Made by a program: the position numbers and the translations under genes. 64,000 bases of DNA from the NCBI RefSeq assembly GCF_036365525.1, contig NC_090379.1, forward strand, positions 48,912,329-48,976,328, read 5' to 3'. The stretch comes from Heterodontus francisci. Taxonomy: Eukaryota. The notes beneath the pieces were generated by a model, which made no database searches, was not told the origin of the DNA, and saw only the letters and a program-made list of their open reading frames with translations. Shown here one piece after another: positions 2,188 through 59,299 of this stretch (within the stretch, counting starts at the first letter, position 1; the number at the start of each line of letters is the position of its first letter).

Positions 2188-2903
2188 AGCAGTGCACTAC
2201 AGGGCGTCACACCACCTGTCCAGGTACTGGAACCACATCTTCAGAAGCCTGATGTCCTGCTCGATGGTTGTCCTTCAGTTGTAGTGCCTATGTGCCGCCT
2301 TTTTGGTGTCACGTAAAGGAATGAGTAGCCATTACTTCAAGGGATATTTCTTGTCCCCTAGAATCCATCCACAAACATTGGATGGTGGTATGAAGAGCTG
2401 CAGCACCCTGGACTGCCGGAGGACTAGCACGTGTGAGGAAAGCGAGCGCACCCATGCAAGGAGCTTGAATTGGTTGCAGACTAATTGAACATTGAGGGAG
2501 TGGAAGCCCTTCCTGTATATGACTCTCACTGGCTGCTCATTCGGCGCCTTGATGGCCACATCGGTGCAATTGATGATACCCTACACCTGCGGCAATCCAG
2601 CAATGGAGGCAAATCCCACTTTCTTTTGCGCCTGCGAGGCCCCAACTGTTTGAAATCATATGTACTGCCCGGCTCTCGCAAGTAGTGCATCAGTGCAAGA
2701 TGCAACAGTGCGCTGCTGCTTGAGAGATGCCACCAAGGAAGGGGCCAGAGGCAAAAGTTTAAGGCCACTGTGACTTTTATGACTACGGGCAGGGGGTGGC
2801 AAGCAGTACTGCATGGTCTGAGGTTTTCCTCAATGTGGGCACAAATCTCAGTGACCATCTGATGAAAGGTCACCGATCTGAAATGTTAACTCTGTTTCTT
2901 TCT

Positions 2904-3800
2904 TGTCATGCAGACCCCCACCTGCCAAGAATGAGGCATATTAATTTTGTCATATGAACATTGATTTGAAACTGTTGCTGGAGTAAAGAAATGACTTGTT
3001 TGAAGATCACCAGACACTGGACTGGAAGGATATTTGCATACTAAGAGATGCTGCTTGTGGAGACAAAGGACTATTCCCTGCTCCAATTAACCCAAATGGA
3101 TTTTGATCACCAGACATGGAATGTGTAAGGAAGTGCATTCCAGGGACTGCGAAGGTAATACAATCCACTAACCTCGCAGGAGAGACTGTTCCAAATAAGG
3201 AGCTAGTCACATGACTAATCTACTGGCCAACTTGGCTTTTTATTTGTGCCACACAGAAAGGAACAGAAGGCAGTGTGCAACTGAAGCTGGAACAAGGAAG
3301 CCTCCCTCTCTCGCTTTCTCCCAAGTCACCAGACCCACGAAAGACGCATAAACCTCAAGAGAGAAAAGACTTCTACATTGGAACAAGTTGAAGCGTGAAC
3401 TGGGCCCCAACGAATTGTAAGTCTTACCAGCAACCAAAGACTCCCCATTGAACTTCAAGGACTGTAACTACCAGATATTGCCTCAAACTTTTCCCCTTTA
3501 TTCTTTTCTACTTTTTCTATCTCTATCGGTGTGTGTGTTTATCGTGTATGCATGCTAGCGTGGTCGCGTCGCATATTCGTAGTCGTTAACCGGATTAGAG
3601 TTTAAGATTAATAAACTTCTACCTTTCTTGTTTAAATCTAAGGAAACCTGTTTGATTTCTTTGCCTTACACTTGGAGCAGCGAAGAAGGGTTCACTAAAG
3701 GGAGCTAAAAACACAGTGTTTTAAAATTAAACCCTGTTGCTGTTAAACCAGGCAAAGGCTGAGAGGGAACCCCTAGACCCCTTCTCACCTGGTCGTAACA
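2904..3800 (+). repeat. 5' LTR
   Basis: TGTCATG...CGTAACA; direct repeat of 6979-7839; AATAAA at ~3610. Confidence 0.92.
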
Positions 3801-3939
3801 GAAATTTGGGGGCTAGCATCCTGGATTTGACCCACAGACAAATGAGGAAATTGGAAGTGGGGAGTCAAATTGATCCCAAACAAAAAGGGAAAAGATTTCA
3901 ATACAGGTTTTCTTGTGGCTGTGTGTACTCGAATACTAA

Positions 3940-6130
3940 CATGTCTACGACTGAAGCTAGTAGTTCCCCAAGCCAAGGTGAAGTAACTTGGGATAAGTTA
4001 AAAGCACTGTCTATGGAGGAGTCGAGGGAAATGGCTGAGCAGTGTGGGATCACTGTACATGGCAAGGCAAGGAAGTCTAAACTCCTAAGGCTAGTGGCCA
4101 ACCATTTTCCCTTGAATCTGAAGAAGCAGAAACAGGGTTAGAAATAGACTCTGACAGAGTATTGCTAGCAAAGATACAATTGGAACAGAAGAAACTTGAA
4201 TTTAAGGAAAGAGAAAGAGAGAAAGAAAGAGCCTTCCAGAAAGAACGTGAGGAAAGAGAAAGAGAGAGACAGGAGAAACAAAAAGAAAGACAGGAGAAAC
4301 AAAAAGAGAGGAGAGAAAGAAAGAGCCTTCCAGAAGGAACGTGAAGAAAAAGAGGGACAGGAGAGAGAAAGAGAAAGAACCTTTCAGAAAGAATGCGAAG
4401 CAAGAAAGCTGAAGTGGCTCGAGTTAACTAGGGGGCAACAGAGTAACCCTAGTGAAAGCATGGCCAATATGGAGGAGTGTAATTTAGGGCTGAGTACAGA
4501 ATTGTTAAAATTCTCCAACTGATCCTAAAATTCAATGAGGGAGGCGTGGAAGTGTTTTTTGTGTCTTTTGAAAAGCTGGCAAGCCAGTTAAATAGGCCAG
4601 CTGAGGCTTGGACTCTCCTGCTACATAGTAAGCTAACTGGAAAAGCCCATGAGGTTTATTCCATGTTGCCAGATGAGAGTTCATCAGATTATGAACTGAC
4701 AAAAAATGCTATCCTTGGGGCATATGAATTAGTACCTGAAGCCTATTGCCAAAAGTTTAGAACCCTCAAGAAGCAAACTGATCAAACTTACCTGGAGAAA
4801 TAAGCAGTTGGCTTTGACCAGTGCTGAGGGTGCAAGTGCAGGAAAATTTAACAGGATTCCTGAAAGTTATCAGGGTTTTGTGTTTGAAGGGAGAGTAACC
4901 CCATATCCCTCGAGTGGGACAAGCAAGCCCATAGTAATTCTCAGGGTCACAGGGGCCATTAGATCCCTTTTACTGGAAAAAGGCCAGACCTTTCCCCCCA
5001 AGAGAGTGCAGTAAACACCAAAATGGCGGTGAATGGTATTGGAGGGCAGAGAATGCCTGTACCTTTACACCAAGTGCACTTGGAGTGCGACATAGTTTCG
5101 TGACTGGTGACCATAGGGATTGTCCCTAGTTTGCCTATGGAGGGGTTGATCTCCTAGGTAATGATCTGGCAGGGACGAAGGTGGTAGCTTGCCCAGCAGT
5201 GAAAGAGAGACCGCAGGAGGCCAGAGAGACAAGGTAATGGCAGGAAATGGTCCCCTGCAGTTTCCCTGAATGTGTAATGAACGAGGCCATGATCAAACCA
5301 GCTCCCCCAGAGGGGACTGAATTGGCACTGCAGTTAGATGACCATGAGGTCTGTCTGTCTGATACTTTCTTTGGAAAGTTAGAAGACCCAGGGAATGAGT
5401 TAAATGGATTTTCCCTAGCTGAGGCTCAGCGAGCTGACCCAGTATTGAGAGAATTAGCACAGACTACCCAGTCTGAAAGTGAAGCAGAGGGAGTCCCTGA
5501 TTGCTATTATTTAAAGAATGAGGTGCTGATGGGGAAGTGGAGTTCTCCTCACAGACCTGAGAGCAAGGAGTGGACAGTAGTTCACCAGTTAGTGGTGCTG
5601 CAGAGGTACCGGAGAAAAATAGTAAGAATACCCATGAGATTGCAGCAGATGTACATGTTGGTACAGTGGTGTAGTGATTAGTACTGCAGCCTCACAGCTC
5701 CAGTGACCTGGGTTTGATTCTGGGTACTAGCTGTGTGGAGTTTGCAAGTTCTCCCTGTGACCGCATGGATTTCTGCCGGGTGTTCCGGTTTCCTCCCACA
5801 GCCAAAGACCTGCAGGTTGATAGGTAAATTGGCCATTGTAAATTGCCCCTAGTGTAGGTAGGTGGTAGGGGAATTGAGGGGATGTGGTAGGAATATGGGA
5901 TTAATGTAGGATTAGTATAAATGGGTGGTTGATGGTCGGCACAGACTCGATGGGCCGAAGGGCCTGTTTAGTGCTGTATCTCTTAAAAAAAAAAGCCCAC
6001 ATAAGACAGCAGTTTGACTGGCCAAAACTCCACAAAGACGTGGTGGAGTACTGTGCCACATGCGCCAGGTTGAGGGGCATCCCCAACCTACAGTGAAATC
6101 TGCACCCCTAAGTCCTGTATCGGGATTTGG
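3940..6130 (+). pseudogene. Frameshifted gag(SCAN)-protease-integrase(N-terminal) remnant
   Basis: Joined from ORF pieces 3737-4141, 4162-4344 (E/K/R coiled coil), 4546-4803, 4808-5014 and 5247-5681; contains stops and frameshifts. Confidence 0.8.
5660..5993 (+). mobile_element. HE1-type tRNA-derived V-SINE
   Basis: tRNA-like head, central domain GGAGTTTGCAAGTTCTCCC, CR1-derived tail and A-run; inserted in the Gypsy integrase region. Confidence 0.85.
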
Positions 6131-6978
6131 AAGACCCTCCAGCAGAGGGCTGGTGAACTGTAAGGGACACCTGTCGAGAACAAAAGGGGACAGGCAGGCA
6201 CAAGGCTGGCAACAGGTTAGAAAGGAACAGGGAAAAAGGGACCAAGAGGGCGGATTAAAGGAAGTCCGGGAAGAATCCCAGATGAAAACCCCTACTGTCT
6301 GGTCAGCCAACCTTGAAATATTTGAAAAGTTAGACTCCACATCCTCCTATGTAAGTCAAACACTAGATGCAACCCACCAGAGTGGCTAACAGCATTTACA
6401 GGAACCTGCAGAGACAAAGAAAGTCCTCCAGGGGACAGAAACCGTGAGGGTGATGCCTCACCAAGTTGAAGTGCCACAGGGGCATGCAGCAGAATATGGA
6501 CAAATACCAGCAAGGAGGAGTGTCCCTGAGGACAAAGAATCCTCCCCCACAGGCAGGAAAAAAGGCAACCAGCCATCCCCTGAGGTAAAAAGCCCTCGCA
6601 TGACTCATCAAAGCACTGAAAGTGTGTTCAGAGTGGGACTACCCACTGCTGCCGCCCCTGATCAGACCTACAACCAAGGGCTAATTAAACCTAAACTCCC
6701 CCTGCAGACCTCAACAAGAACAAAGACACCATAGGCAGTCATGGAAATGAGCAAACTGGAAAAACTTCCCCAACAACCACATGTTTATTGGGATTCATAA
6801 AAGGGACATTTGAAGCAGCACTGCTACCAAGAAAATACAGGCTGTAACAATTGTTCGGGATCTGACTGAAATGAATGAGAGAGATGCCTGTGTGTTTTCC
6901 TGTCTTGATCTTCTCTCTAGTGCCTTTTAATGAAATACTCTTCTTAATAATCGCATTTCATTCCGCTGGATGTGGAGG

Positions 6979-7839
6979 TGTCATGCAGACCCCCACCTGC
7001 CCAGAATGAGGCATATTAATTTTGTCATATGAACATTGATTTGAAACTGTTGCTGGAGTGAAATGACTTGTTTGAAGATCACCAGACACTGGGCTGGAAA
7101 GACATTTGCATACGAAGAGATACTGCTGGTGGAAACAAAGTACTATTCCCTGCTCCAATTAACCCAAATGGATTTTGATCACCAGACATTGAAGGTGTAA
7201 GGAAGCGCATTCCAGGGACTGCTAAGGTAATACAATCCACAAACTGCCAAATAAGAAGCTAGTCACATGACTAACCTGCTGGGCAACCTGGTTTTTTTTT
7301 TTGGAATTGTGCCACACAGAAAGCAGTGTGCAACTGAAGCTGGAACAAGGAAGCCTCTCTCTCACTTTCTCCCAAGCCACAGACCCACAGAAGACACGTA
7401 AACCTCAAGACAGAAAAGACTCCTAAATCAGAACAAGTTGAAGCGTGAACTGAGCCCCAACGAATTGCAACTTACTGGCGACCAAAGACTCAACACTGAA
7501 CTTCAAGGACTGTAACTACCAGATATTGCCTCAAACTTTTCCCCTTTATTCTTTTCTATCTCTATCTCTCTGTGTGTTTATCGTGTATGCATGCCAGCAT
7601 GGACGCGTCGCATATTCGTAGTTGTTAACTGGATTAGATTTTAAGATTAATAAACTTCTACCTGTCTTGTTTAAATCTAAGAAAACCTGTTTGATTTCTT
7701 TGCCTTACAATTGGAGCAGTGAACAAGGATTCACTAAGGGGGAGCTAAAAATACTGTTAAAAAAATTAAACCCTGTTGTGGTTAAACCAGACAAAGGCTG
7801 AGAGAGAACCCTTAGACCCCTCCTCACCTGGTCATAACA
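6979..7839 (+). repeat. 3' LTR
   Basis: TGTCATG...CATAACA; direct repeat of 2904-3800 with several indels. Confidence 0.92.
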
Positions 7840-8825
7840 CTCTCCACAGATGCTGCCAGACCCAAGTATTTTCAGCACTTTGTTTATATTTCAGTTACCA
7901 TCTGCCTGGATAGGCACACAGTTTCGTGATGCACTGATTCTTTGACATGTTCCAGTAGCAGCTTCTTCAGCAGTACACTCAATGCTGACGGTATGGCATT
8001 CGTTGCTTTCCTGCCCCTCGTTCCTCTGCTCTGCCCTCCTCAAGCCGGTCTCTGCATCTGCTCCTGAGGATGTAGTCCCTCATTACTCCTCAACTCTATC
8101 TCCAAGTATCTTGCAGTCAGCTGTACTTGTACTGCTTACTGAACCCTACGCACATCACCCTCCCCCCCCGCCCAACCCAACCCAAGCCCACCCCACCGAT
8201 GGTCCCGCGATCCCTGGAGGCTCATGACCCCCTCCACTACCCGGGCAAACACAGACCTTGTGCTGTTCATTCTGCTCACTCAATGGCATCTGTGTGCCAA
8301 TGACTAAATACCCCTCTCAATCATGCACCCATTTACTGTACCTAATTGAATGGTACAGCCATAACTCATTCCTTGCTGTGTTGCTGCCGACTTCCACTTG
8401 GACTCTTCCTGATCCATTGTGCAATCTGTGCATTCCCACAAAAAATTCCAAATTGGCCCTCGAGGAGCTGACAAGCTGATTAACAAGATCAATTGGACAA
8501 TTATTTGAACCAGGCAGGTTGCCGGGTTTCACCTGCCCTCTTCCAGAGCAAAATTGCCAGTGGTCAGAATGGCGGCAGCAAACTGGTAAGACAGCCGGTG
8601 GCACAAATTTTCGTGCCTGCCTGCCTCTGTGCTCCTACCCTTGGTGCTTTTTGCCTACAAAACAATGACTACAATGCAAATAAATTTATTGGCTGTATAG
8701 TCCTTTGGGACAGCCAGAGGTGATCAAAGGTACCGGCAAGTTTAATCTTCATTATTCAATGATGTCCAGCTACCAGTGAAATAGTGACCACCGTACGGCA
8801 CTAGTGGTGCAGTATTATCTCTCAT

Positions 8826-10905
8826 TCATACAGAACAGAAGCAGGCCCTTCATGCTCCTATCTATTCCACTCCCATTTTCCAGCACTTGGCCTGTAGCCT
8901 TGTATGCTATGGTGTTTCAAGTGCTCATCTAAACACTTCTTAAATGTTGGGAGGGTACCTGCCTCTACCACCCCTTCAGACAGTGCGTTCCAGATTCCAA
9001 CCACCCTCTGGGTGAAAAATGTTTTCCTCAAATCCCCTCTAAACCTTCTGCCCCTTACCTTAAATCTTTGCCCCTTGGTTATTGACACCTCCACTAAGGG
9101 AAAAAAGTTTCTTCATATCTACCCTATCTATGCCCCTCATAATTTTGTATACCTCAATCAGGTCCCCCCTCAGTCTTCTCTGCTCTAAGGAAAACAACCC
9201 TAGCCTATCCAGTCTCACTTCATAGCTGAAATGCTCCAGCCCAGGCAACATCCTGGTGTATATCTGCTGCACCCTCTCCAGTGCAATCACATCCTTCCTA
9301 GTGTGGTGACCAGAACTGTACACAGTACTCAGGCTGCGGCCTAACTAGCGTTTTATACAACTCCATCATAACCTCCCTGCTCTTAGTTTTAGTTTTAGAG
9401 ATACAGCACTGAAACAGGCCCTTCGGCCCACCAAGTCTGTGCCGACCATCAACCACCCATTTATACTGATCCTACACTAATTCCATATTCCTACCACATC
9501 CCCACCTGTCCCTATATTTCCCTACCACCTACCTATACTCGGGGCAATTTATAATGGCCAATTTACCTATCAACCTGCAAGTCTTTGGCATGTGGGAGGA
9601 AACCGGAGCACCCGGAGGAAACCCACGCAGACACAGGGAGAACTTGCAAACTCCACACAGGCAGTACCCAGAATTGAACCCGGGTCGCTGGAGCTGTGAG
9701 GCTGCGGTGCTAACCACTGCGCCACTGTGCCGTCCATATTCTATACCTCAGCTAATAAAGGTAAGTATTCCATATGCCTTCCTACCTGTGCTGCTGCTTT
9801 CAGCGATCTATGGACAAGTACACCAAGGTCCTTCTGACCTTCTTACTTCCTAGGGTCCCTTGCCTTGTTAGTCCTCCCAAAACACAACCTCACATTTCTC
9901 AGGATTAAATTCCATCTGCCACTGCTCTGCCCATCTTATCAGCCCATCTATATTGTCCTGTAATCGAAGGCTTTCCTCTTCATTATTTACACCACCATCA
10001 ATTTTCACGTCATCTGCAAACTTACTGATCATACTTCCTGTATTCACGTCTAAATCATCAATGTACAATACAAACAAGGGTCTCAGCACTGATCCCTGCG
10101 GTACACCATTGGTCACAGGATTCCAATTGCAAAAACCCTCAAACATCACCCTCTGCCTCCTGCCACTAAGCCAAATTTGGAGCCATAGGCGCTTAACTTC
10201 TTGACCATTCTCCCATGCAGGACCTTATCAAAAGCCTTACTAAAGTCCACGTAGTCTATATCAACTGCTTTACCCTCATCTATACACCTAGTCACCTCCT
10301 CGAAAAATTTAATCAAATTTGTTAGACACGATCTCCCTCAGACAAAGCCATGCTGACTATCCCTGCCTCTCCAAGTGGAGATTAATCCTGTCCCTCAGAA
10401 TTTTCTCTAATAGTTTCCCTACCACTTACGTTAGACTCACTGGCTTGATTTATCCTTAATATCCTTCTTGAATAATGGTACCACATTCGCTATCCACCAG
10501 TCCTGTGGCACCGCTCCTGTGGCCAGAGAGGATTTGAAAATCTGTGTCAGAGCCCCTTCAATCTCCTCCCTAGCCTCACATAGCAGCCTGGGATACATCT
10601 CATCTGGGCCTGGGGATTTATCCACTTTTAAGCCTGCTAAAACTGCTAATACCTCCTCCCTTTCAATGTTAATTTGTTCAAGTATATCACAATCCCCCTC
10701 CCTGATCTCTACACCTACATCGTCCTTCTCCACAGTGAACACAGATGAAAAGTAATCATTCAAAACCTCACCTACGTCCTCCGGCTCCACACACAGATTG
10801 CCACTGGTTATCCTCTTACCCTTAATATACTTATAAAACACCGTGGGATTTTCCTTCATCTTGTCCACCAGTTTTTTCATGACCCCTCTTCACTCTCCTA
10901 ATTAA
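8826..10905 (-). mobile_element. CR1 (HER1-like) LINE, 5'-truncated
   Basis: Minus-strand ORFs with KSPGPDEMYPRLL, GVPQGSVL, KFADD, RRLRGDLIEVYK and FFTQRVVGIWNAL. Confidence 0.9.
9383..9735 (-). mobile_element. HE1-type V-SINE
   Basis: Full-length copy, near-identical to the copies at 23.9 and 51.3 kb; interrupts a CR1. Confidence 0.9.
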
Positions 10906-11750: not shown

Positions 11751-11833
11751 GGCCCAGCCATACAGTATAATACTGCTGGCATCTCAAAAAATCATTAATG
11801 ACTTCTGAGAAGACAGACATATGATACTGTGTA

Positions 11834-12031
11834 ATAAAAGCAAAATACTGCGAATGCTGGAAATCTGAAACAAAAACAAGAAATGCTGGAATCACTCAGC
11901 AGGTCTGGCAGCATCTGAGGAAAGAGAAGCAGAGTTAACGTTTCAGGTCAGTGACCCGAAACGTTAACTCTGCTTCTCTTTCCACAGATGCTGCCAGACC
12001 TGCTGAGTGATTCCAGCATTTCTTGTTTTTG
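11834..12031. mobile_element. Penelope-derived inverted-repeat (fold-back) insertion
   Basis: 80-bp arms at 11871-11950 and 11952-12031 with 2 mismatches; flanked by the 16-bp direct repeat CATATGATACTGTGTA. Confidence 0.85.
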
Positions 12032-12187
12032 CATATGATACTGTGTATTTGGTAGCAGTGTGGTTCAAAAAAAAATCATGCCAAATTACTGACTCAATAT
12101 TCTACAACGTTTTCAAAATGAGAATTTTGTCCTGTAGCTCAATGCATTGGATAGCAAATATTAAGCTGACAAATAGTTATACTATGT

Positions 12188-17177: not shown

Positions 17178-18524
17178 TCAGTATTCCCATTCATCTGTTT
17201 TCATGTCTAGGTAATTCAGAATATTCTGGGCAAATTTCACTGCTTGTTTTCTGGCAACTTTAGCACCATCATTCCCTTGGGTTTCCACAGCATCAAGTGC
17301 TAGGAGTTGCTTTGTGAGCATTTCTTCCAGTCTCATGTAATTCTTGTCAGTTCTGTCTCCATCAAATGACAGCACCTGCTTCTGAAATTCTGACAAATGG
17401 CTCAGGACTTGCCACACAGCTTTCTGTGAAGGATGTTCATCTCTCAACTGCTCTTTCATGTTCTCTCTCTTTCCAAGCGATTCCTTCAGGTCAACATAAG
17501 CTATTACAGCTTGCACATCAACTACAGATCTTCTCCTAGCTTCACGAATACATGGATTTTTGCCAATGTCTACCTTATCTAAATCGGTGAGAAAACTTTG
17601 CAGTTCAGCCTTTGGTTTGAAATGGAGATCAGAGGCATTTTCTAACTGCAGCAGCTGTTGTTTTAATTGTGTCGTCTTCTGGCGTATTTCTTCTATCTGT
17701 TTGATGGATTGATTTTGTGCTAGATCATAACGCCCTGCAGACTCTCCCTCTGATTCCATCTCCAAGTGTTCTAGTAAACAATTGATTTCATGCACCACAC
17801 GTTTCCGATAGTTTCTCACCTCCGAGTGTCCAGCCACGTCTACAGCATCCAATTGCATTAACAACCCCGTGAGGACACGGGACAGATGTGCGCAGTTCTC
17901 TAAGGCATTCAGGTTCATCAGCAGGCCAATCACATCCCATCTTGCTTTGCTAACCTCACACAAAACAGAGTTGATCTTGGAAACAGAAGGGTGTGTATTT
18001 GTGGACAAAGGCAAAGATAATGCTTGCCGACCAATGCAGTTTTCAATGATGTCTTGCACTGCACAAATCCTTGTCAAAGCTCGATATCTAGCTTTCCTCA
18101 AGCTAATTTTTCCTCCTGTTTTTACCTGTGTCAGTTGAAATATAATTTCTTGGATGCGATCGGCAAATTCCTCAGTTATCAAGCCCTCAGCTGAAGATAA
18201 CTCATTGGTAACCAACTGTTGTGCATCACCGAAGATTTTTTCCACCTTCAGCCGAGATGGGTGAGTTGCAATTTGTTCTAGCTCTTTCAGCAGTTCCTCC
18301 ACATCCTTCACTGCACTTTTGCGGCCATGCTGGATATCAGACTTGCCATCAGTATCTACTGCATCTAACTCAAACAGCAACTTGGTCAAAGTGCTCTCCA
18401 GGCGCTTGTATTCTCTATCAGACTGCGTACCACTGAACAAAACTACGAGTCGCCTAGATTCATGGATTTCCTTCTGAATTTCTTGGATTCTAATCATGGA
18501 AGGATGTTGTTGACCCATGGCCAT
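17178..18524 (-). CDS. BAG5: BAG family molecular chaperone regulator 5 (448 aa, single coding exon)
   Basis: Intact ORF with repeated BAG domains. MAMGQQHPS start, KTGGKISLRKARY, KNPCIREARRR and the C-terminal LDMKTDEWEY match vertebrate BAG5. Splice acceptor TTTCAG at 18557-18562 (minus). Confidence 0.98.
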   Translation of the reverse strand: MAMGQQHPSMIRIQEIQKEIHESRRLVVLFSGTQSDREYKRLESTLTKLLFELDAVDTDGKSDIQHGRKSAVKDVEELLKELEQIATHPSRLKVEKIFGDAQQLVTNELSSAEGLITEEFADRIQEIIFQLTQVKTGGKISLRKARYRALTRICAVQDIIENCIGRQALSLPLSTNTHPSVSKINSVLCEVSKARWDVIGLLMNLNALENCAHLSRVLTGLLMQLDAVDVAGHSEVRNYRKRVVHEINCLLEHLEMESEGESAGRYDLAQNQSIKQIEEIRQKTTQLKQQLLQLENASDLHFKPKAELQSFLTDLDKVDIGKNPCIREARRRSVVDVQAVIAYVDLKESLGKRENMKEQLRDEHPSQKAVWQVLSHLSEFQKQVLSFDGDRTDKNYMRLEEMLTKQLLALDAVETQGNDGAKVARKQAVKFAQNILNYLDMKTDEWEY

Positions 18525-19359
18525 ATTCCCTTTTTCCCTAATGAGTCATAGTGGGTCTGAAATTGAAGCAAAACATGGTGGTCAGGGATCACTTCTTGGC
18601 ATCAAACCTAAACTTTATTGATTATTGCTTCCAGATTAAAGTGCTGGTAGGAGGAGGACCTGTAAATTGGCTTCTGTTCCATCTCTACATTCAGTAGATG
18701 CTACAATAAATGCTGCTTTGCTCAGACAGAAATTGCAACAGACAATTAATTATACCTAGTACTCGAATCCAGCAAGTCAAGGCAAAATGCGGAGGCAAGC
18801 CCAACAAATTTCTGTGGCAATAAAATCTAGATTTTGCAGCAAGTTTATCCAGGATTTTAAAACATCACAAATGCAGTGCCAATGAAGAAAGGTGGCCACT
18901 GCTGAGGCTGCAAGGATAAGAGTGCGCCTCCATTTTGAGGCACCCTCACAGGTGAGTTAGAAAACTTTTCTCTGTCAGTGCCAGGCAGGCAGGCCCTGGC
19001 AATTGAAGGGAGACCACCTCCAGTGGTGATGTTGGGGCAGGCTTTGCTGCCGGGGCCTCCTCCTTGGGCCATGGAGCCTCCGGATGCAATGGCAAACCAC
19101 ACCCCCCCCAGCCCAGAGGAAGCTGCCCTCCATGCAGCTGATGCTACTCCACCACAGAAGATGGCTCTTAATATTGTGCCTTTAATTGGCTAAATTCACC
19201 ATCTGCTTCCAGTCAGTAGGCAGCCGGGCTGCTGCCATTCCAGCTGCTGGTAAAATGGCCTGGCAACTGGACCTGCGTGGAGAGCCCCACGAGGTGGCAC
19301 TTTACCACCCGCCCCCCCCCTCTCTCCCCCTGCCATTTCCTAGCCCATCACCCAGGGGC

Positions 19360-19480
19360 CAAAAACAGAAAATACTGGAAATACTCAGCACAGTTCTGAT
19401 GAAAGGTCATCAACCTGAAATGTATTTTTCCTCTCTTCAAAGATGCTGCCAGATCTGCTGAGTATTTCCAGCATTTTCTG
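19360..19480. mobile_element. Penelope-derived short repeat with a hammerhead-like core
   Basis: CTGATGA at 19396 followed by AAGGTCATCAACCTGAAA; inverted arms CTGGAAATACTCAGCA / TGCTGAGTATTTCCAG. Confidence 0.7.
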
Positions 19481-20059: not shown

Positions 20060-23000
20060 CTCTTTAACAAATCCTTGCTGGCTCTCCAGTATTAACCCAT
20101 GAATTTCCAGGTAAGAATTAATTTTGTTCTTGTCAATTGTCACCACTAGTCTAACTGCCACTGGCGTTAAGACTGATTGACCTGTAGTTACCAGGATTAT
20201 CCCTCTCCCCTTTTTTGAACAGGAATATAATATTTGGAATCCTGCAGCCCTCTGGAACCACTCCCATATCCAAGAATTGAAAGGTCATTATCAGAGCTTC
20301 TGCTATCTGTATCCTAACTTTCCTCAGGAACTTAGGATGCATCCCATTTGGACTAGGTGACTTGTTAACTTTGTGTGACACCAGCCTATTTAGAAACTCC
20401 TTTCCAACTATTTTTATCCTATCCGATATCGCCTCCATTGTAATATTAACTCCATTCTTTTCTTTTGTAAAGACAGATGCAAAGTATTCATTCAGCATCT
20501 CAGTCATGCCCTCTGTTCCAAATTGACTCCACCATTCCTTTAAATATCCTTTTACCTGTTCATAGAATCATAGAAATTTACAGCACAGAAGGAGGCCATT
20601 CAGCCCATCCTGTCCCTACCGGCCAACAAGTAACCATCCAGCCTATCCTGTCCCTACCGGCCAACAAGTAACCATCCAGCCTAATCCCACTTTCCAGTTC
20701 TTGGTCCATAGCCTTGAAGGTTATGCACTTCAAATGCATATTCAAGCACTTTTTAAATGTTATGAAGGTCGCTGCCTCTGCTACCCTTTCAGACAGTGAG
20801 TTCCAGATCCCCACCACCCTTTGGGTGGTGAAAGAATTTTCCCTCAAATCTCCCACCTCTTATCTTAAATCTATACCCCCTGGTTATGGACCCCTCAACT
20901 AAGGGAACAGGGCCTTCCTATCCACTCTATCTAGACCCCTCATAATTTTATACACTTCAGTTAGGTCTCCCCCCAGCCTCCTCTGTTCCAAAGAAAACAA
21001 CCCTAGCCTATCCAATCTCTCCTCATAACTAAAATTCTCTAGTCCAGGCAACATCCCCGTAAATCTCCTCTGCACCCTCTCTAGTACATTCACATCTTTC
21101 CTATACAGCGGTGACCAGAACAGCATGCAGCACTCCCGCTGTGGCCTAACTAGTGTTTTATATAGTTCCAGCATTACCTCCCAACTCTTACATTCTATGC
21201 TTCAGCTAATAAAGGCAAGTATCCTGTAAGACTTCTTGACCAATTTATCTATCTGTCCTGTCACATTCAGAGATCTGTGGACATGCACTCCAAGGTCCCT
21301 CTGTTCTGATACGCTTCTCATTATCCTACCATTTGTTGTGTATATGTTTGTAAAATATTTTTGGGTTCCCCATTATGTGTCAGCCGTGGCTCAGTTGGTA
21401 GAATTCTCACCGTTGAGTCACAAGGTTGTGGGTTCAAGTTCTACTCCAGGACTTGAGCACAAAAATCAAGGCTGACACTCCAGTGCAATACTGAGTGCTA
21501 CACTGTTGGAGGTGCCATCTTTTGGATGAGACATTAAACTGAGGCCCTGTTTGCCCTCCTAAGTGGATGTAAAAGATCTCGTTGCACTATTTTGAAAAAT
21601 TATTTATCCCTCAATCAACATTACAGAAACAGATTATCTGGTCATTATCACGTTGCTGTTAGTAGCTTGTTGTGTGTAAATTGGCTGTCACATTTCCTCC
21701 ATTACAATAGTGACTACATTTCAAAAGTACTTCATTGGCTGTAATGCACTTTGGGAAGTCCTGTGGTTTTTCTGACACTATATAATTGCAAGGATTTTTT
21801 TTTACCCAGTAATCTCTTTTCCCAGTGTCCTTTATGTATCCTTTTGCAATTTTTCCCTGCACTTTATTTTTCCTGATTTTCAACTGTGTTTAGTACCCAA
21901 CATTTGTCATGAACCTCCTTTTTCTCTTTTATTTTAACCTCCATTTCCTTCGTCATTCAGGGAGCTCTAGCTTTGTCTTCCCCATCATTCCTCCTGATGG
22001 GAATATATCTGCCTTGTACCCAAACTATTTCCACCTTGAGGCCTGCCATTGCTCAGTTACTGTTTTTTTGGACAATCTTTGTTTCCTGTTCACCTGCGCT
22101 AGATCCCTTCTCAATTCACTGAAATTGCCTCTCATCCAGTTGTGCATTTTAACTGCTGATTTTACTCCTTTCCAAAACTACTTTAAACTTAATTATATTA
22201 TGATTGCTATTATCTGGATATACTCCCACTGCAACACATTCCACCAGCCCAGTTCATTCCCCAGAACTGGACCCAGCACTGCTTCTTTCCTTGTTGAGCT
22301 AGAAACATACAGATTAAGAAAGTTCTCCTGTACACGTTTTAGGTATTCTTCCCCAAACTTGCTCTTTACTCTTCTTTGAGTCAATATTGGGGTAATTGAA
22401 GTTCCCTATTACTGCTCTATTCTTTTTCACATTTCTCTGAAAGTTTCCTATAGATTTGCTTTTCTATCTCCTTCTCACTATCTGGCATTGGGTGGGGGCG
22501 GGGGGGTCTATACTAAACATCCAGCAATGGAACAGTTCCTTTTCAGTTCCTAACTCTAACCAAATAAATTCAGTCTTTGAACCCTCTAGTATATTGTTCT
22601 TCTGTAGAACTGATCCTTGATCAATACTACCACCATGCTATCCACCACCCCATGCCTATATTTCTTCCCTATTCCTCCTGAATAAACTGTAGCCAAGAAT
22701 GTTGTTTCCATTACTGTCCATGTTTAAGCCAGGTCTCCATTACTGCCGCCATATAAACCCAAGTGGCAATTTGCCCTTGTAGCTCATCAGCCTTATCTGT
22801 AACAGTCCTCACATTCACACACACACCGACACATTCCAACATCATGTCAAATTAGTTTGAATCCTTCCCCCATGGCACTAGTTAACCTCCCCTTGAGAAT
22901 ATTGGTCTCAGCCTTTTTCAGGTACAAACAGTCCAACTTGTATTGGTTCCTCCCATCCCAGAACTGATCCCAATGCTCCAGGAATCAAGAGCCCTCCTTC

Positions 23001-23907: not shown

Positions 23908-24251
23908 TTTCAGTTTAGTTTTAGTGATACAGCACTGAAACAGGCCCTTCGGCCCACCGAGTCTGTGCCGACCATCAACCACCCATTTATACTAATCCTA
24001 CACTAATCCCATATTCCTACCACATCCCCACCTTCCTTATATTCCCCAACCACCTACCTATACTAGGGGCAATTTATAATGGCCAATTTACCTATCAACC
24101 TGCAAGTCTTTGGCTGTGGGAGGAAACTGGAGCACCCGGCAAAAGCCCACAGGGAGAAGTTGCAAACTCCGCACAGGCAGTACCCAGAATTGAACCCGGG
24201 TCGCTGGAGCTGTGAGGCTGCGGTGCTAACCACTGCGCCACTGTGCCGCCC
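23908..24251 (-). mobile_element. HE1-type V-SINE
   Basis: Full-length copy. Confidence 0.9.
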
Positions 24252-27322: not shown

Positions 27323-28130
27323 ATAATAAAACAAAAGCAAAATACTATGAATACTGGACATTTGAAAATACTAGAAACAAATCAACAGGTCAGACAGCAC
27401 CTGTGGAGAGGGAAACAAAGTTAGCATTTCAGGTCGATGTCCTCACCTTCCACCCCACCAGCCTCCACATTCAATAGATCCTCTGCCACCTCCAGCGTAA
27501 TGCCACCATCAAAACACATCTTTCCCTCCCCTTTCAGCATTCCAAAGGGATTGTTCTTGCTGTGACACCCTAGTCCATTCTGTCCTTCCTAGTACATTTC
27601 CAATTTAACATTGAGTTTAACAACATTAGATCTCAGCCACCACTCCGATTCCCTATCAGACAACAGATACTGGTAACGGAGAATGCTTGTACCAGAACTA
27701 CTGGGAGTGGAGATGTGGGTTAGTGTTTGGATGGGGATGGCCTATTGGAATACAGCCAGTGGGTGGTCCGCACCTGAGGTTTACCTGTCTTTCTTATGCG
27801 ACTTTCCTGGTCGCAGCAACACTCTCTGCTTTGCCAGATTTTCCAGCATTTCCCCCACCAGCACCACTCCTGCTATTTTGTATACACCTCGTCTTGATCC
27901 ATTTATTGTCTCTTTTCTTGTGCAAGTAGCATCTCCTTATGCCTTGTACCATCATCCATTTTGTTAGTCAATCACTTAGCCTCTAACCTTTCCCTTGCCT
28001 CTGCAATTGCTTAAAAGTGGTTCATCTCCAACTTCTTTCAGTTCTGATGAACGGTCATTGATCTGAAACACAGACTGTGTTTCTCTCCCCAACTTGCTGA
28101 GTGCTTCCAGCATTTTTTGTTTTTATCTCA
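27323..28130 (+). mobile_element. Truncated Penelope-like element (inverted 5' pLTR, ORF remnant, 3' pLTR)
   Basis: Inverted repeat at 27323-27437, then VLTFHPTSLHIQ..TIKTH..AFQRD..DTLVHS and NIEFNN (PLE ORF C-terminal signatures), then a pLTR with CTGATGA at 28044. Confidence 0.75.
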
Positions 28131-33130: not shown

Positions 33131-33222
33131 ACGACAGGAAGTCGTTGTGGTTGCCTCGCTGCCGTAAACTGTGACGGCCCAGGGTGAAGTGCCAGGAGGA
33201 AGTGTACGTTTTTTTTTCAGTG

Positions 33223-33393: not shown

Positions 33394-33559
33394 GTAAATG
33401 AGAAATTTTCCCACCTCCAGTAACGTGAACGATCGCCAGGGTAACCACACCGTCATTCGAAGCTTGTTAGTTCATGGTTATATGTAAAGTGAATCAAATA
33501 TTGTACCGCGGTTATATTTTCCCCTGCAGGCTACGTTAACCAAGATTTGAGTTATTAAT

Positions 33560-38263: not shown

Positions 38264-38461
38264 ATTTCAAGTTTTCAGCCTCCTGCAGACTCTCACCATG
38301 ACTGGGTTGGCCCTCAAGATAGATTTTCAAACCTAAGACCTATAAAGTTTTACGCCCTAAAGAATGAATCCGAATTGGAACAGCAGCTGAGGAAGTTAAG
38401 GATAGACACTCAGAACTGGAATCAGAAATTTTGGTCTAATCAGAACATAACTTTCAACAAG
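38264..38461 (+). CDS. COA8: COA8/APOPT1 coding exon 2
   Basis: TTTTTCAG|[58 protein letters not shown]|GTGGGT; matches the COA8 DWIGPPD..SNLRP motif. Confidence 0.96.
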
Positions 38462-38496
38462 GTGGGTATTATGAGTTGTTTAAGCTTGCACTAATA

Positions 38497-44958: not shown

Positions 44959-47311
44959 TTTTTTTATTCCATGGGATGTGGCTGTCGCTGGCTAGGCCAG
45001 CATTTATTGCCCATCCCTAATTGCCCTTGAGAAGGTGGTGATGAGCTGCCGTCTTGAACTGCTGAAGTCCTTATGTGTAGGTACACCCACAGTGCTGTTA
45101 GGAAGAGAGTTCCAGGATTTTGACCCAGAGACCGTGAAGGAACGGCGATATAGTTCCAAGTCAGGATGGTGCGTTATTTGGTGCAAAACTTGCAGGTGGT
45201 GTTGTTCCCATGCTGCCCTTGTCCTTCTAGGTGATAGAGGTTGCGTGTTTGGAAAGGATCCTTGGTGAGTTGCTGCAGTGCATCTTGTAGATGGTACACA
45301 CTGCTGCCACTGTGTGTCGGTGGTGGAGGGAGTGAATGAGATGGTGGATGGGGTGCCAATCAAGCGGTCTGCTTTTTTTCTGGATAGTGTTGAGCTTCTT
45401 GAGAGTTGTTGGAGCTTCACTCATCCAGGCAAGTGGAGATCATTCCATCACACTCCAGACTTGTGCCTTGTAGATGGTGGACAGGTTTTGGTGAGTTACT
45501 TGCCGCAGAATTCCCAGCCTGTGACCTGCTCTTGTAGCCACAGTGCTTATATGGCTGGTGCAGTTCAATTTCTGGTCAATGGTAACCCCCAGGATGTTGG
45601 CAGTGGGGGATTCAGTGATAGTAATTCCATTGAATGTCAAGGGAAGATTGTTGGATTCTCTCTTGTTGGAGATGGCCAATGCCTGGCACTTGTGTGGCAC
45701 GAATGTTACCTGCCGCTTATCAGCCCAAGCCTGGATATTGTCCAAGTCTTGTTGCATATGGACATGGACTGATTCAATATCTGAGGAGCCGCTGAACATT
45801 GTGTAATCGTCAGCGAACATCCCCACTTCCGACCTTATGATGGAGGGCAGGTCTTTGATGAAGCAGCTGAAGATGTTTGGGCCTGTGAGCTCCTGCAGTG
45901 ATGTCCTGGGCCTGAGATGATTGACCTCCAGCAACTACAACCATCTTCCTTTGTGCTAGTGTTACGAGTTAGAGAGGTCTTGGGTTCCCTTTCAGCCTTC
46001 ACCTGGCCTTACTGTAACAGGGTTTAATTTTAAACACCCTGTGTTTTTAGCTCCCACTTGGTAAATCGCATTCCAATTATAAGGCAAAGAAACCAGCACA
46101 AACAGGCTTTCTTTGGTTTAAAGAAAAAAAGTTGAAATTTATTGAACTTAAACTCTAATTCGGTCAATGCCTATGGATACACGACGCACCCCATACTAGC
46201 ATGCATATGCGATAGACACATGCAAATAGAGACAGAAAAGAGCAGAAGAAAAATAAAGCGTAGAGTCCTTGATTGTAGGTAGATCTTGCTTTTCGTTGGG
46301 GCGGGGCCCAGTATTCTTTTTAAACTTTTGATGTAGGAGACTTTTCTCTCATGGGGTTCATGTGTCTTCAGTAGATTCAGAGGCTTGAGAAAGAGATGGG
46401 AGATGACAGGAGAGAGATCTTCTCAGTCCAGGAGCAAACGGACCTTCTGCCCAAACTGTTTGTACAAATTCAACAAACGCAAGTTGTCCGGCATGTGACT
46501 AGCTGGTTTGACCATGTCTGTTTGTGTATTTGGCCATCTTAGCAGTCAACCTGGAATGCGTGTTCCCCCTCCTTCAACGTCTGGTGATCCAAAGTCCATT
46601 GTGGGTTGAATGTGTCAGGAAATGGCTGCTTTGTCCTTCCAAACACCATTGTTAATATGCAAATGTCTTTTCCAGCCACGGCTGATCTGTTCAAGTCGTC
46701 TTCACTCTAGTAACAGTTTAAAATCAATGTTCATGACAAAATTAATGTGCCTCGTTCTAGGCAAGTGTGGGCCTGGCATGACGGCTAGGTATGACTCCAA
46801 CCAGTGGAGAGTTTTTCTCCTGATTCCCATTGACTCCAATTTTGCTAGGGCTCCTTGATTTCACACTCGGTCAAATGCTGCCGATGTCCAGGGCAGTCAC
46901 TCTCCCCTCACCTCGAGTTCAATTCCTTTATCCATGTTTGGACCAAGGCTGTAATGAGATCAGGAGCTGAGTGGCCCTGGCGGAGCTCAAACTGAGCGCC
47001 AGTGAGCGGGTTATTGCTGAGCAAGTGCCACTTGGTAGCACCGTCGATGACCCCTTCCATCACTTTACTGAAGATCGGGAGTAGACAGATAGGGTGGTAA
47101 TTGGCTGTGTTAGATTTACTTTTTATGCACAGGACATATTTGGGCATTGAGGATGGGGATATTCATGGAGCCTCCTCCTCCTGTTAGTTATTAAATTGTC
47201 CTCCACCATTCACAACTGGATGTGGCAAGACTGCAGAGCTCAGTTCTGATTCGTTGGTTGTGGAATTGCTTAGTTCTGTTCATCGCATGCTGCTTCCGCT
47301 GTTTGACACAA
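44959..47311 (-). mobile_element. Second CR1-group LINE, split by a solo LTR
   Basis: ORFs 45440-45934 (FADD..NILGVTIDQKL) and 46908-47147 (NYHPICLLPIFSKVME). Confidence 0.85.
45960..46783 (-). mobile_element. Solo LTR related to the LTRs at 2904/6979
   Basis: Reverse complement aligns with 2904-3800 (e.g. AAAATTAAACCCTGTT, TTTGTCAT, GAACATTGATT); flanked by GCTAG/GCTAG. Confidence 0.88.
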
Positions 47312-50662: not shown

Positions 50663-51263
50663 ACATCATATCTGTACATATTCCTCTTTTTCAAATAATT
50701 AAGTGATATTGTTTCTGATCACTTGTAGTGAAGCAGTGTGTATTCCATAAGTCGCTCTCAAAACATTTCTTCTGACTTCTTTTGTTTTTCTTTAGTGATG
50801 ATCCTAATTCAGGTTCATGTTCAAATGCGCAAATAACAGTATGGGAATATGAAGTAGTGGTAATAATGGAGACGTGGCTTAAAAATGGTGAGGACTGGGC
50901 GCATAAAGTGTTCAGAAAAAATAGAGAATGAAGAAAGGGAGGTTGGGTGGCGGTACTGATCAGGGAAGACATTTTAGTGTTGGAAAGAGGATATGCCTTT
51001 GAGGGGGCAAGGACAGGATCCATTTGGTTAGAGTTGAGAAGCAAAAAGGGTGTGATCATGCTACTAGGGGTATTCTACCAGCCACCAAATAGTGAGAGAG
51101 AGAGGACCATATATGCAGAGAAATCGCAGAGATGTGCAAGAGCTATAGAGTGATGAGATTGGGGGGACTTTAGTTACCCAAATATCGATTGGGATAAAGT
51201 AAAAGGAAAAGAGAGGGGAGGGAATTCTGAAATGTGTTCAAGAGAACTTCCTTGATCAGTATG

Positions 51264-51605
51264 TTTTTTTTTTAGAGATACAGCACTGAAACAGGCCCTT
51301 CGGCCCACCGAGTCTGTGCCGACCATCAACCACCCACTTATACTAATCCTACACTAATCCCATATCCCTACCACATCCCCACCTGTCCCTATATTTCCCT
51401 ACCACCTACCTATACTAGGGGCAATTTATAATGGCCAATTAACCTATCAACCTGCAAGTCTTTGGCATGTGGGAGGAAACCGGAGCACCCGGAGGAAACC
51501 CACGCAGACACAGGGAGAACTTGCAAACTCCACACAGGCAGTACCCGGAATTGAACCCGGGTCACTGGAGCTGTGAGGCTGTGGTGCTAACCACTGCGCC
51601 ACTGT
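51264..51605 (-). mobile_element. HE1-type V-SINE
   Basis: Near-identical to 9383-9735. Confidence 0.9.
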
Positions 51606-56348: not shown

Positions 56349-56439
56349 GGAGAAAAAATACTTTGAATGCAGAAGAGATGGCTGAATTTTATAAGGAGTT
56401 CCTTGATATAAATTACAAAAAGCATGTGAACTACAATAA
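56349..56439 (+). CDS. COA8: COA8/APOPT1 coding exon 4
   Basis: TTTTCAG|(G)[29 protein letters not shown](K)|GTAAGT, 91 bp, phase 1 to 2. Confidence 0.96.
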
Positions 56440-57023
56440 GTAAGTAAACCTACTGATAGATTTTTAAGCAGTGTAAGCAATGTAAATGGGTTCATGAAGA
56501 GGCTGAGAATAAATTGGAAGTGCAATAGACTGTATTAAAAGGTCATTTCTTCCAGGACATGAGGAATAAGGTTACTGTAATCATTTGATGACTGTAGTTG
56601 TAAATATTGTGATTAAAAATAAAGGGTGATCTGTAGTTCCCCTTGCATGATGACCTACAGATCACCCCACCAGTACTGAGATCTGCCTGTAAATCTGACA
56701 ACCTTGAGCAAGTTGCATAGGTAGAGCATTTCCATAGTATTGTATTGTTGCATTCCTAGGTGAAGGATAAACCTGACCAGGAATTGTAAAGAGGTCCATG
56801 CTTTCTTCTGTTCACGTGACCCACCTGAAGGAAATTGTGGTGAGGTGAACAATAGCCATATGAAAATAAACAGAAGCCAATAAGATAGAGTTAAAATTTA
56901 TTAAGATTCTGTTCAAAGTTCATTTTAACCTCTTTATAACCAAGATCAACATCTGTTGTCGACAGTTTATAAGTAAAAACAATTCTGTGTTTCAAGGCAG
57001 AAAGGAAATTGCTCAAAAACATT

Positions 57024-57335
57024 AAAATAAAAGCAAAATACTGCAGATGCTGGAAATCTGAAATAAAAACAAAGTGCTGGAAATACTCAGCAGGACTGGC
57101 AACTCTGTTTCTCTCTCCACAGATGTTAACGTTTCAGGTCTATGACCTTTCATCATAACTTGTTCTAACCTTAACCTGAAATGTTTTTATTTCAGATTTC
57201 CAGCATCCGCAGTATTTTGCTTTTATTTAAGTGTTTAATTCACCGTCACTTCTCTTTCAGGAATGCCTACCTTGCAGAAGTTCTGCTCTTCTCTCCGGGA
57301 TTTCTGTTTGTCTCTTTTACTTTGTTCACCTTCAA
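57024..57335. mobile_element. Penelope-derived inverted-repeat insertion
   Basis: Inverted arms AAATAAAAGCAAAATACTGC..CTGAAATAAAAACA and their complement; minus-strand hammerhead-like core at 57125-57160; 14-bp TSD TGCTCAAAAACATT. Confidence 0.8.
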
Positions 57336-57457
57336 TGCTCAAAAACATTGCTAGAAATTGTATTACTCCAAAGTCTACTACCTCAACTAAGTGTAACTTT
57401 GTAACATAGTGAATGTTGTCAAATGAATGTCATTTTCTTCCATCTTCCTTTGATCAG

Positions 57458-57560
57458 GGAATGGTACAAACGTAATTTTACTATCACGTGGTTAATGGGT
57501 CGAGTAGTGCTGCAAAGTGCCTGGAGAAAACTAAGATGGAGGAAGGAAGTCAAACAATGA
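57458..57560 (+). CDS. COA8: COA8/APOPT1 last coding exon
   Basis: pyrimidine tract-CAG|(K)EWYKRNFTITWLMGRVVLQSAWRKLRWRKEVKQ-TGA. Confidence 0.95.
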
Positions 57561-58559
57561 AGATGCTGTTCTGTGAAAAGTCTAATTGGATTTAAATGCT
57601 TGGAGTTGGAATTTAACTTTGCCATGAATATATTGAAATATAGGTGTAACTCTAGTGTCTCACAGTAAATGAATTCTAAAATATACACAATAGTTATCAA
57701 AGTATAATGCCTTTTCTGTTATTGAAAACTTAAATATAAATATACTTTGTTTACATTATTGCGTGTGTATTTTTTTTGTTTCAACCATTGTATTTGTTCA
57801 GCAGCTTCCTGTAGTATGATAACTGATCACATAAGTCCAGCAAGTATGAACCCTTAAATTAATAACAGCAACCAGAAATTATCCTTAAATGAAAGGAGTG
57901 TGTCGTCCACCACCATGAAGAGTCTCTTACACTCAGACGAGCCTGGTTCCTTTGGGATCCCGCTGTCGTTGATCAACACAGAGGAGCTAGGCCAGGTATT
58001 GGCAACCTTAATAATAATAGCCATTTAAAAAATTTTAGTCAGAAGCGCAATATCTTAAGGGCTGCAATGTTGTTTCTCAAATGCCAATAATAATGAAAAA
58101 CAAGACAGACACATTTCAACAACATTTTAAAGGGCTTTACAAAAATGTTAATACTTTCTCAAGTTTAAAAAATCTTTTAATTACTATCCGTGGGTATGAT
58201 CGATCAAGGTTAGGAGTTTACACGAGTCCTTAATGAGTTGCATGCTGCTCTGAAGCAGCAAGTTGCAGATCTCTGAGCTAGGTAGAGCTGGCAAGGCTGG
58301 ATGGTTCCTGGTACCATATGATGTGGGGTGGGAAACTGCTGAAAACTTCACCAATTTAGCTAAGAATTCAGAATTTTCGAGATTTAAAAAAAAATCACAA
58401 TCAGAAAATCTATACGTCATTTAACACTCCATTAACAAAATGTATTTACATTTTACATAAATATGCGTATGATGGTACCAACATTTAGAGCAGTATTGTC
58501 TTGAGTTCAATTGTTTTATGTGCAGATACAACACAATAATTTGAATAGCAAATTCAAAT

Positions 58560-59170
58560 AAAAGCTTGCATTCATAATAGCACCGTTTAATGTAAAGAAA
58601 AGCACCCCAAGGGACGTCACAAATGGAAATTGGCAGGGAAAAGGTGCAAGCTATTTAGGAAGAGATTAGTGGGGGGGATAGCCCAAGTCTGGCCAAAAAG
58701 ATGGTTTTGAGAAGACTTTAAAAGGAACAGAGACAGGTGGACATGCAGAGAAGGTTAGAGAAAGAGTGAAGCTAATACCACCATAGGATCCACAACTGGT
58801 GAGGTAAAGGGAGGGAGTTGTATTTTTTTAAAATCAGAATGAGAGGACTGAAGGATGTGGTGGAAGCTAGTATAAGACTTGGAGGACATTGTAGCGATAG
58901 GTTGCACCAAGACCATGAAGAAATTTATAAGAATGAGTGGTTCATATTTAATATATTGTGGGACAGGGGCCAGTGTATGTCAAAGATGGGTGAATGGGAC
59001 TTAGTGCAGAACAGAATGAAGATGCTGTGTTTTGCACAAGTGGGAGACAATGTAGACAATGGGAGGACATTGAAATAATTGAGTCTAGAAGTGACAATGA
59101 ATGGATAAGGGTTTCAATGACAGAGGGATAGCAATGTTGCACAAGTGGAAATAGGTAAATTTGGTGATGG
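58560..59170 (-). mobile_element. Old L2 LINE fragment
   Basis: ETLIHSLSLLDS remnant; similar to 30300-30830. Confidence 0.55.
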
Positions 59171-59194
59171 TTGGAATATGGGTTCTGATAATAG

Positions 59195-59299
59195 GGTTCT
59201 GATGAAAGGTTATTGACCAGAAACATTAACACTCTTTCTCTCTCCACAGATGCTGCCAGATTTGCTGAGTATTTCCAGCATTTTCTGTTTTCATTTTAG
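59195..59299 (+). mobile_element. Penelope-derived short repeat with a hammerhead-like core
   Basis: GTT-CTGATGA-AAGGTTATTGACCA-GAAAC-ATT-AAC followed by the family tail CTCTCCACAGATGCTGCCAG. Confidence 0.75.

What the first reader, a model, noticed from the sequence alone, without database searches (positions are those of the whole stretch)
2855..59299. Dispersed family of Penelope-derived repeats carrying a minimal hammerhead-ribozyme core
Seen: at least six related ~100-300 bp repeats with an approximate consensus (A)GTT-CTGATGA-AAGGTCA.nGACCT-GAAAC-GTT-AAC(T). CTGATGA occurs at 2859, 19396, 28044 and 59199; an ATGATGA variant lies on minus at 57125-57160; a half-core lies at ~11930-11970. 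This gives the hammerhead boxes CUGAUGA and GAAA, a short stem II, stem I (AGUU/AACU) and a loopless palindromic AACGUU in place of stem III. Known: Penelope-like elements carry such minimal type-I hammerheads, proposed to work as dimers. Inference: a non-autonomous, retrozyme-like family has spread through this genome, including BAG5 and COA8 introns. Every copy here has some mutation, so these copies may be inactive.
Basis: partly seen in the sequence, partly recalled or inferred. Interest (0 to 1): 0.7.

Follow-up and report, generated by a model that had tools for sequence, protein, structure and literature searches.

The report
Penelope retrotransposon stubs carrying minimal hammerheads
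These repeats are short pieces of the end repeat of a very abundant, still-young Penelope jumping gene that carries a known kind of small hammerhead RNA motif, not a separate ribozyme family; many begin sharply at the front edge of the motif, likely because the RNA that gets copied starts there and is copied uncut.

Summary
The repeats and hammerhead boxes are real (5 matches, 0 in 100 shuffles). They are not a separate retrozyme family. They are fragments of the terminal repeat (pLTR) of an autonomous Neptune-type Penelope retrotransposon. Two window insertions still hold ORF pieces, and full-length 924-aa copies elsewhere carry the motif in both pLTRs (13 of 14). In 1.4 Mb of unselected genome (101 hits), short copies intermix with long ones on a tree and form no head-to-tail arrays. 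Of 77 truncation points, 26 fall at the stem I edge and none cleanly at the cut site. A TATA-like box at -30 and an initiator-like site sit at that edge. The stubs are therefore likely reverse-transcriptase run-offs from the 5' end of uncut RNA. All window copies are damaged, often by CpG decay, but about a third of whole-motif copies genome-wide are intact. The youngest subfamily carries U4C. Cleavage was not tested. The scan reached the same reading earlier on other DNA of this genome.

The parts
2858..2903 (+). Hammerhead head of a Penelope stub (old subfamily; C15.2 lost by CpG-type change), left half of a copy split by an LTR element
   Evidence: target duplication 2848-2861 / 7891-7904 (14 bp, 1 mismatch)
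2904..7839 (.). LTR retroelement (LTRs 2904-3800 and 6979-7839, 86.6% identical, TG...CA ends) inserted later into that stub; not part of the Penelope family
7840..7890 (+). Tail half of the same split stub
11834..12031 (.). Head-to-head hairpin insertion of two young-subfamily tails (97% to a full-length copy), turning at hammerhead stem II; lacks the CYGANGA box
   Evidence: exact 16-bp target duplication 11818-11833 / 12032-12047
19360..19480 (+). Stub beginning at stem I (A at 19392), preceded by an inverted tail piece 19360-19390; stem III and the 3' strand of stem I are damaged
27329..27443 (-). Inverted pLTR tail at the 5' end of a truncated Penelope insertion
27444..27633 (+). Broken Penelope ORF remnants: RT C-terminal region (27438-27580, 73% to the full-length element, E 4e-22) and the last ORF codons (27607-27633)
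27634..28127 (+). 3' UTR / pLTR with TATA-like box region, hammerhead (A at 28040; cleavage triplet lost) and tail
   Evidence: target duplication 27319-27328 / 28128-28137 (10 bp, 1 mismatch)
57024..57160 (-). Stub from stem I to tail end (C3A; internal 21-nt micro-inversion), in the last COA8 intron
57182..57333 (+). Tail, 5' UTR and ORF start (ATG 57263, MPTLQKFC...) of the autonomous element, 92% identical; same insertion as the stub beside it
   Evidence: target duplication 57008-57023 / 57334-57349 (16 bp, 1 mismatch)
59196..59299 (+). About 104-nt stub starting at the G of stem I and ending at the shorter tail site; G16.2A and stem mismatches; no target duplication found

Best explanation
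The repeats are fragments of the terminal repeat of an autonomous Penelope-like retrotransposon with a 924-residue reverse transcriptase/GIY-YIG frame, and the roughly 100- and 135-nt stubs likely arise when reverse transcription primes internally on the 5' repeat of uncut element RNA and runs off its start at the front edge of the hammerhead. SHOWN: the unit sits about 380 nt after the ORF stop and about 170 nt before the ATG; 3' ends fall in two clusters about 35 nt apart; 5' ends pile up at stem I; many stubs have target duplications or fold back head-to-head. INFERRED: transcription starts at the A/G of stem I, driven by a TATA-like box at -30 in the upstream repeat; the two 3' clusters are the two internal priming sites known from the anole element; stubs lack the -30 box and so would be dead on arrival. 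The hammerhead, if active, would cut only slowly, with protein help or as a dimer through AACGUU, and is not needed for insertion.
For: 49 of 56 loci picked by ORF match have the unit 150-700 nt downstream on the same strand. 13 of 14 loci with open frames of 924 aa or more carry it in both direct repeats. The ORF has RVT_1 (E 8.5e-6) and GIY-YIG (E 0.002) matches. Unselected 1.4 Mb: 101 hits; 3' ends 40 and 38 of 99 in two clusters; 26 of 77 internal 5' ends in 7 positions at stem I (binomial p 4e-26); no shared upstream sequence; target duplications of 10 bp or more in 4 of 16 non-hairpin stubs against 2.5% of mismatched controls. TATAA/TTAAA at -33..-23 in 50 of 74 distinct long copies, 0-1 in five control windows, with YC|AGTT at the edge in 58 of 74. 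Stubs are interleaved with long copies on the tree. Frangieh 2024 (PMC11167929, parts 1-2 read): two internal priming sites define the tail, uncut RNA is the dominant template, and hammerhead mutants insert normally.
Against: No raw RNA reads were available, so neither the start site nor any cut end was observed (contigs only). The edge base is ambiguous: young hairpins turn at the G, one base after the predicted initiator A. The cap-type extra G is only suggestive (6 of 11, p 0.015, with post-hoc exclusions). The 74 TATA-bearing copies belong to one family and are not independent. In the folded 5' leader stem I has probability 0.0, and the cofolded pair does not give the hammerhead dimer as its minimum-energy fold. 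Both Pfam hits are below gathering cut-offs. Arkhipova 2013 (PMC3846280, passages) reads head-to-head junctions as self-priming on an antisense template. The tree uses only 99 columns, so a young stub-only lineage could hide (3 young stubs group weakly, support 87/0).
Confidence: 0.7

Rival explanations
1. The stubs are a self-propagating non-autonomous family (retrozyme- or SINE-like) that is transcribed on its own, cut by hammerhead dimers and mobilised in trans.
For: Sharp 5' boundary, target duplications and very high copy number. About 86,000 intact motifs by extrapolation from 20 in 1.4 Mb. Animal retrozymes derive from pLTRs (10.64898/2026.07.22.740005, parts 1-2 read).
Against: No head-to-tail arrays among 101 hits; the one adjacent same-strand pair with two motifs (L171) joins two different subfamilies. 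No clustering of stubs on the tree. Boundaries are not the cut site. Stubs lack the -30 TATA-like box.
Confidence: 0.08
2. Same parent element, but the 5' pile-up marks a structural or protein-bound stop of the reverse transcriptase on a longer RNA, or self-priming on an antisense template, not a transcription start.
For: 17 head-to-head pairs among 101 hits, several turning within stem II (window 11834-12031). Arkhipova 2013 (PMC3846280, passages) argues for antisense self-priming.
Against: A polymerase coming from the 3' side would stall before a structure, not just after copying all of it (inference). The TATA-like spacing and initiator-like site coincide with the edge.
Confidence: 0.17
3. 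The edge is a splice acceptor (branch-point-like CTAAC, pyrimidines, CAG), as in Drosophila Penelope where an intron ends at helix I, and the stubs come from spliced RNA.
For: The sequence has acceptor-like features. Cervera and de la Pena 2014 (PMC4209133, parts 1-2) report the intron end at helix I in D. virilis.
Against: No shared first exon upstream of 38 stubs (only 2 weak 16-mer matches). Target duplications abut the G directly. No GT..AG joint among the listed RNA-contig joints (one search lists all 11; one search lists 15 of 244).
Confidence: 0.05

Closest known systems
Minimal hammerheads in pLTRs of metazoan Penelope-like elements (Cervera and de la Pena 2014, PMC4209133; parts 1-2 of 4 read)
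   Same: Type-I core, extra base between 9 and 10.1, short stem I (4 bp), no stem III loop with palindromic 15.2-16.2, mostly single motifs tied to truncated elements, opposite-strand pairs.
   Different: Here the youngest subfamily has U4C; older ones have A-U or G-U rather than G-C at 10.1-11.1. The parts read do not describe a sharp insertion boundary at stem I.
Neptune/Nematis-type EN+ Penelope-like elements (Craig et al. 2021, PMC8557442; passages read)
   Same: Single ORF with RT then C-terminal GIY-YIG, CX4CxxC linker, DKG motif, partial tandems, inverted 5' copies, optional 30-40-bp tail.
   Different: Clade not confirmed by a tree with reference elements.
Poseidon PAc of Anolis carolinensis (Frangieh et al. 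2024, PMC11167929; parts 1-2 of 4 read)
   Same: Two internal reverse-transcription starts downstream of the hammerhead defining the tail; insertion from uncut RNA.
   Different: In PAc the ORF starts inside stem II and priming is inside the ORF; here the hammerhead and both sites are in a 5' leader of about 170 nt.
Animal non-LTR retrozymes (PMC7229834, passages; bioRxiv 10.64898/2026.07.22.740005, parts 1-2 of 5)
   Same: Type-I hammerhead, pLTR-related sequence, dispersed monomers.
   Different: Retrozymes are head-to-tail repeats of 150-450 bp with canonical hammerheads and circular RNAs; none of that was seen here.

Membership tests
EN+ Penelope-like element | One ORF with RT and C-terminal GIY-YIG | tested here: met
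   924-aa frame; RVT_1 E 8.5e-6, GIY-YIG E 0.002, both below gathering cut-off; atlas neighbours carry RVT_1 and GIY-YIG
EN+ Penelope-like element | pLTRs from partial tandems, inverted 5' copies | tested here: met
   13 of 14 full-frame loci have the unit in both direct repeats; inverted copies in L099, L104, L108-L110
EN+ Penelope-like element | Optional 30-40-bp tail | tested here: met
   3' ends: 40 and 38 of 99 in two clusters about 35 nt apart
Neptune/Nematis clade | CX2-5CxxC linker between RT and EN | tested here: met
   CX4CxxC seen in the ORF; definition from PMC8557442
Neptune/Nematis clade | RT phylogeny with reference elements | not tested
   No reference set fetched
Minimal type-I hammerhead | Core boxes with stems I and II | tested here: met
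   23 of 60 whole-motif unselected copies intact, allowing U4 or C4; descriptor 20 hits against 0 in 5 resamples; 0 window copies intact
Minimal type-I hammerhead | Covariation in stems | tested here: inconclusive
   Pair 10.1-11.1: A-U 30, G-U 21, G-C 15, A-C 0 of 76; one evolutionary path, and no change seen at other pairs
Minimal type-I hammerhead | Self-cleavage as a dimer | not testable with these tools
   Needs an assay; folding does not favour the active fold
Non-LTR retrozyme | Head-to-tail repeats of 150-450 bp, each with a hammerhead | tested here: not met
   No arrays in 101 hits
Non-LTR retrozyme | Own lineage, independent of the coding element | tested here: not met
   13 changes against 13.4 shuffled; nearest-neighbour p 0.60; low resolution
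Non-LTR retrozyme | Circular RNA | not testable with these tools
   Only contigs were available

The most novel reading that the evidence does not exclude
The hammerhead occupies nucleotides +1 to +37 of the capped Penelope transcript. On the order of a hundred thousand stubs are 'strong-stop'-like run-off cDNAs that record both the start site and the two internal priming sites. Only uncut RNA is inserted, and the most recently active subfamily spread with a weakened (U4C) core, so the ribozyme may act as a slow decapping timer on the mRNA rather than as a replication enzyme.
Probability: 0.45. Interest if true: 0.6.

Novelty: new member of a known kind. Interest (0 to 1): 0.33.

Why it matters
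The motif and the element class are already described, so the family itself is ordinary. What is useful is the geometry. The role of Penelope hammerheads is open, and here thousands of natural insertions point to one RNA start at the ribozyme's first bases and to uncut templates. That makes the question testable with CAGE and a cleavage assay on U4 against C4 subfamily versions. The scan has noted this repeatedly in the same genome (79 notes fit the look-up), so this window adds support rather than a new object.

Tried and rejected
Rfam scan: no hammerhead family matched; only hairpin-driven miRNA hits below cut-off. Cut-site starts: of 99 non-edge 5' ends, 7 lie at model 357-366; 4 abut the end of another inserted element that splits the motif at GTT/AAC, 2 are hairpin arms and 1 starts 2 bases past the cut site; one further row at a stretch edge was dropped. 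So there is no clean cut-site start in this sample. A genome search with the young tail alone returned nothing because common words are skipped. RNA contigs cannot show ends, and no place with many starts was listed; their depth was not used. PDB sequence search found nothing useful. Pfam found nothing on three partial ORF pieces. The spliced-leader idea was tested and not supported. The Lunse et al. paper on dimer cleavage was not held; it is known here only from the review's passages (PMC6765202). Six literature searches listed no paper on run-off stubs at the start site in this lineage; that does not show it is unpublished.
Full report
Observation. The cited motifs are present. A degenerate pattern for the core matches 5 times in the window and never in 100 shuffles. 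Self-comparison and a profile search give 10 pieces in 6 insertions. Rfam has no hammerhead hit. Aligned to the motif, each window copy has at least one damaging change, and none passes a strict descriptor. The genome is 6.0 Gb in 2,306 contigs. That it is a cartilaginous fish is my inference from size and recalled repeat types and was not tested.

Host genes. BAG5's coding exon is at 17178-18545 on the minus strand. COA8 exons are at 38297-38464 and 56351-56440, with a last exon at 57458-57560. The 57160 copy is therefore in a COA8 intron, and 59196 is past the stop codon. 19393 and 28041 are probably in BAG5 intron 1, inferred from a CpG-rich patch near 33 kb.

Parent element. Window 27329-28127 is one insertion with a 10-bp target duplication: inverted tail, ORF remnants, 3' UTR, hammerhead, tail. 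Window 57024-57333 is another, with a 16-bp duplication, and includes the 5' UTR and first codons of the ORF at 92% identity. A protein search from a related fragment gave 130,015 first-look candidates and many open frames of 924 aa. One such frame matches RVT_1 and GIY-YIG below cut-off and shows the DKG motif and a CX4CxxC linker, features of Neptune/Nematis-type elements (PMC8557442). Of 56 loci picked by ORF match, 49 have the repeat 150-700 nt downstream on the same strand (one locus is a duplicate pick). Of 14 loci with full frames, 13 have it in both direct repeats about 3.3 kb apart (two of these loci look like a segmental duplicate).

The ribozyme motif. The anatomy matches the minimal hammerheads of Cervera and de la Pena (PMC4209133), who also found them mostly as single motifs. 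In 140 unselected 10-kb stretches there are 101 hits, about 430,000 fragments by extrapolation. Of 60 hits spanning the motif, 23 keep core and stems. An independent descriptor gives 20 hits against 0 in five resampled sets. Damage at the palindrome is symmetric CpG decay (C>T 16, G>A 16 of about 84). Position 7 varies freely. Pair 10.1-11.1 runs A-U 30, G-U 21, G-C 15 with no A-C among 76; this is one compensatory path, so it is weak evidence. The youngest copies (32 identical motifs) carry C at position 4. Perreault 2011 (PMC3088659, passage) notes that U4C considerably lowers activity in vitro yet suffices for a viroid in vivo. Against activity: in the folded leader stem II is certain (0.97-0.99) but stem I is absent (0.0), and cofolding does not return the active dimer.

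Not a retrozyme. Neighbouring hits form 17 head-to-head pairs and no head-to-tail arrays. On a tree of 16 stubs and 28 long copies the label changes 13 times against 13.4 when shuffled, and nearest neighbours share labels at chance. The tree has only 99 columns. Both old and young subfamilies made stubs.

Where copies start and end. 3' ends fall in two clusters, 40 and 38 of 99, like the two internal priming sites that define the tail in the anole element (PMC11167929). Of 77 internal 5' ends, 26 fall in 7 positions at the front of stem I (hairpin partners are not fully independent). Upstream flanks are unrelated, and 4 of 16 non-hairpin stubs have duplications of 10 bp or more against 2.5% of controls. 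None starts cleanly at the predicted cut. Most apparent starts there come from another element inserted at GTT/AAC. Long copies have TATAA/TTAAA at about -30 (50 of 74 distinct; controls 0-1) and YC|AGTT at the edge (58 of 74); young copies also have CCAAT near -83. A TATA plus initiator in a pLTR was described for a rotifer element (PMC3846280), and Penelope transcripts start in the upstream pLTR (PMC2377424, passages). An extra G before the first templated base appears in 6 of 11 unselected stubs (p 0.015). This test was prompted by earlier scan notes, excluded three rows read as templated, and is only suggestive.

Mechanism. Inferred: the upstream repeat of a partial tandem starts the RNA at the stem I A/G, so the hammerhead is the first 37 nt. 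The element's protein nicks AT-rich DNA and primes at one of two sites about 100 or 135 nt downstream of the hammerhead's front edge. Priming on the 3' repeat gives ordinary 5'-truncated or full copies. Priming on the 5' repeat runs off the RNA start and gives the stub, which is joined directly or folds back into a hairpin. Stubs span the cut site, so their template was uncut. They lack the -30 box and would not be transcribed alone. RNA data could not test this: only contigs were served.

Verdict. Real, Penelope-derived and of a known kind; the retrozyme reading fails its defining tests. I had noted the start-site reading before looking at earlier scan notes, which reach the same view on other DNA of this genome; they are not independent support. 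No supplements were read, and the supplementary alignments of PMC4209133 could already include this family.

Noticed in passing
L045, L131, L154, L161, L187, L004 (unselected and bystander copies): An element with short inverted ends (GGGCTG.ATTTT ... AAAAT.CAGCC) has repeatedly inserted at GTT/AAC in the hammerhead, exactly at the predicted cut site, mimicking cleavage ends. Harbinger-like is a recalled label, not tested.
   Followed up: partly
window 2904-7839: LTR retroelement with 86.6%-identical LTRs, inserted into a Penelope stub.
   Followed up: partly
window 57101-57121: Precise 21-nt micro-inversion inside a stub, between short inverted repeats.
   Followed up: no
window 9386-9722, 23914-24238, 33924-34249, 51263-51599, 5660-5969, 60727-61015: A roughly 330-bp dispersed repeat at 86-98% identity in both orientations, SINE-like in appearance.
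   Followed up: no
window 263-760, 9868-10889, 20151-20567, 45440-45934: Reverse-transcriptase fragments resembling CR1/L2-type LINEs (label recalled).
   Followed up: no
window about 33000-33500: CpG-rich patch (observed/expected 0.92), a candidate shared promoter of head-to-head BAG5 and COA8.
   Followed up: partly
L091, L097, L102: Several young full-length Penelope copies sit in or beside 66-80-bp tandem satellite arrays.
   Followed up: no
runs X1-X10 (organisms A, B, C): The element is held by contigs of several other organisms' runs, so the family is shared across related species.
   Followed up: partly
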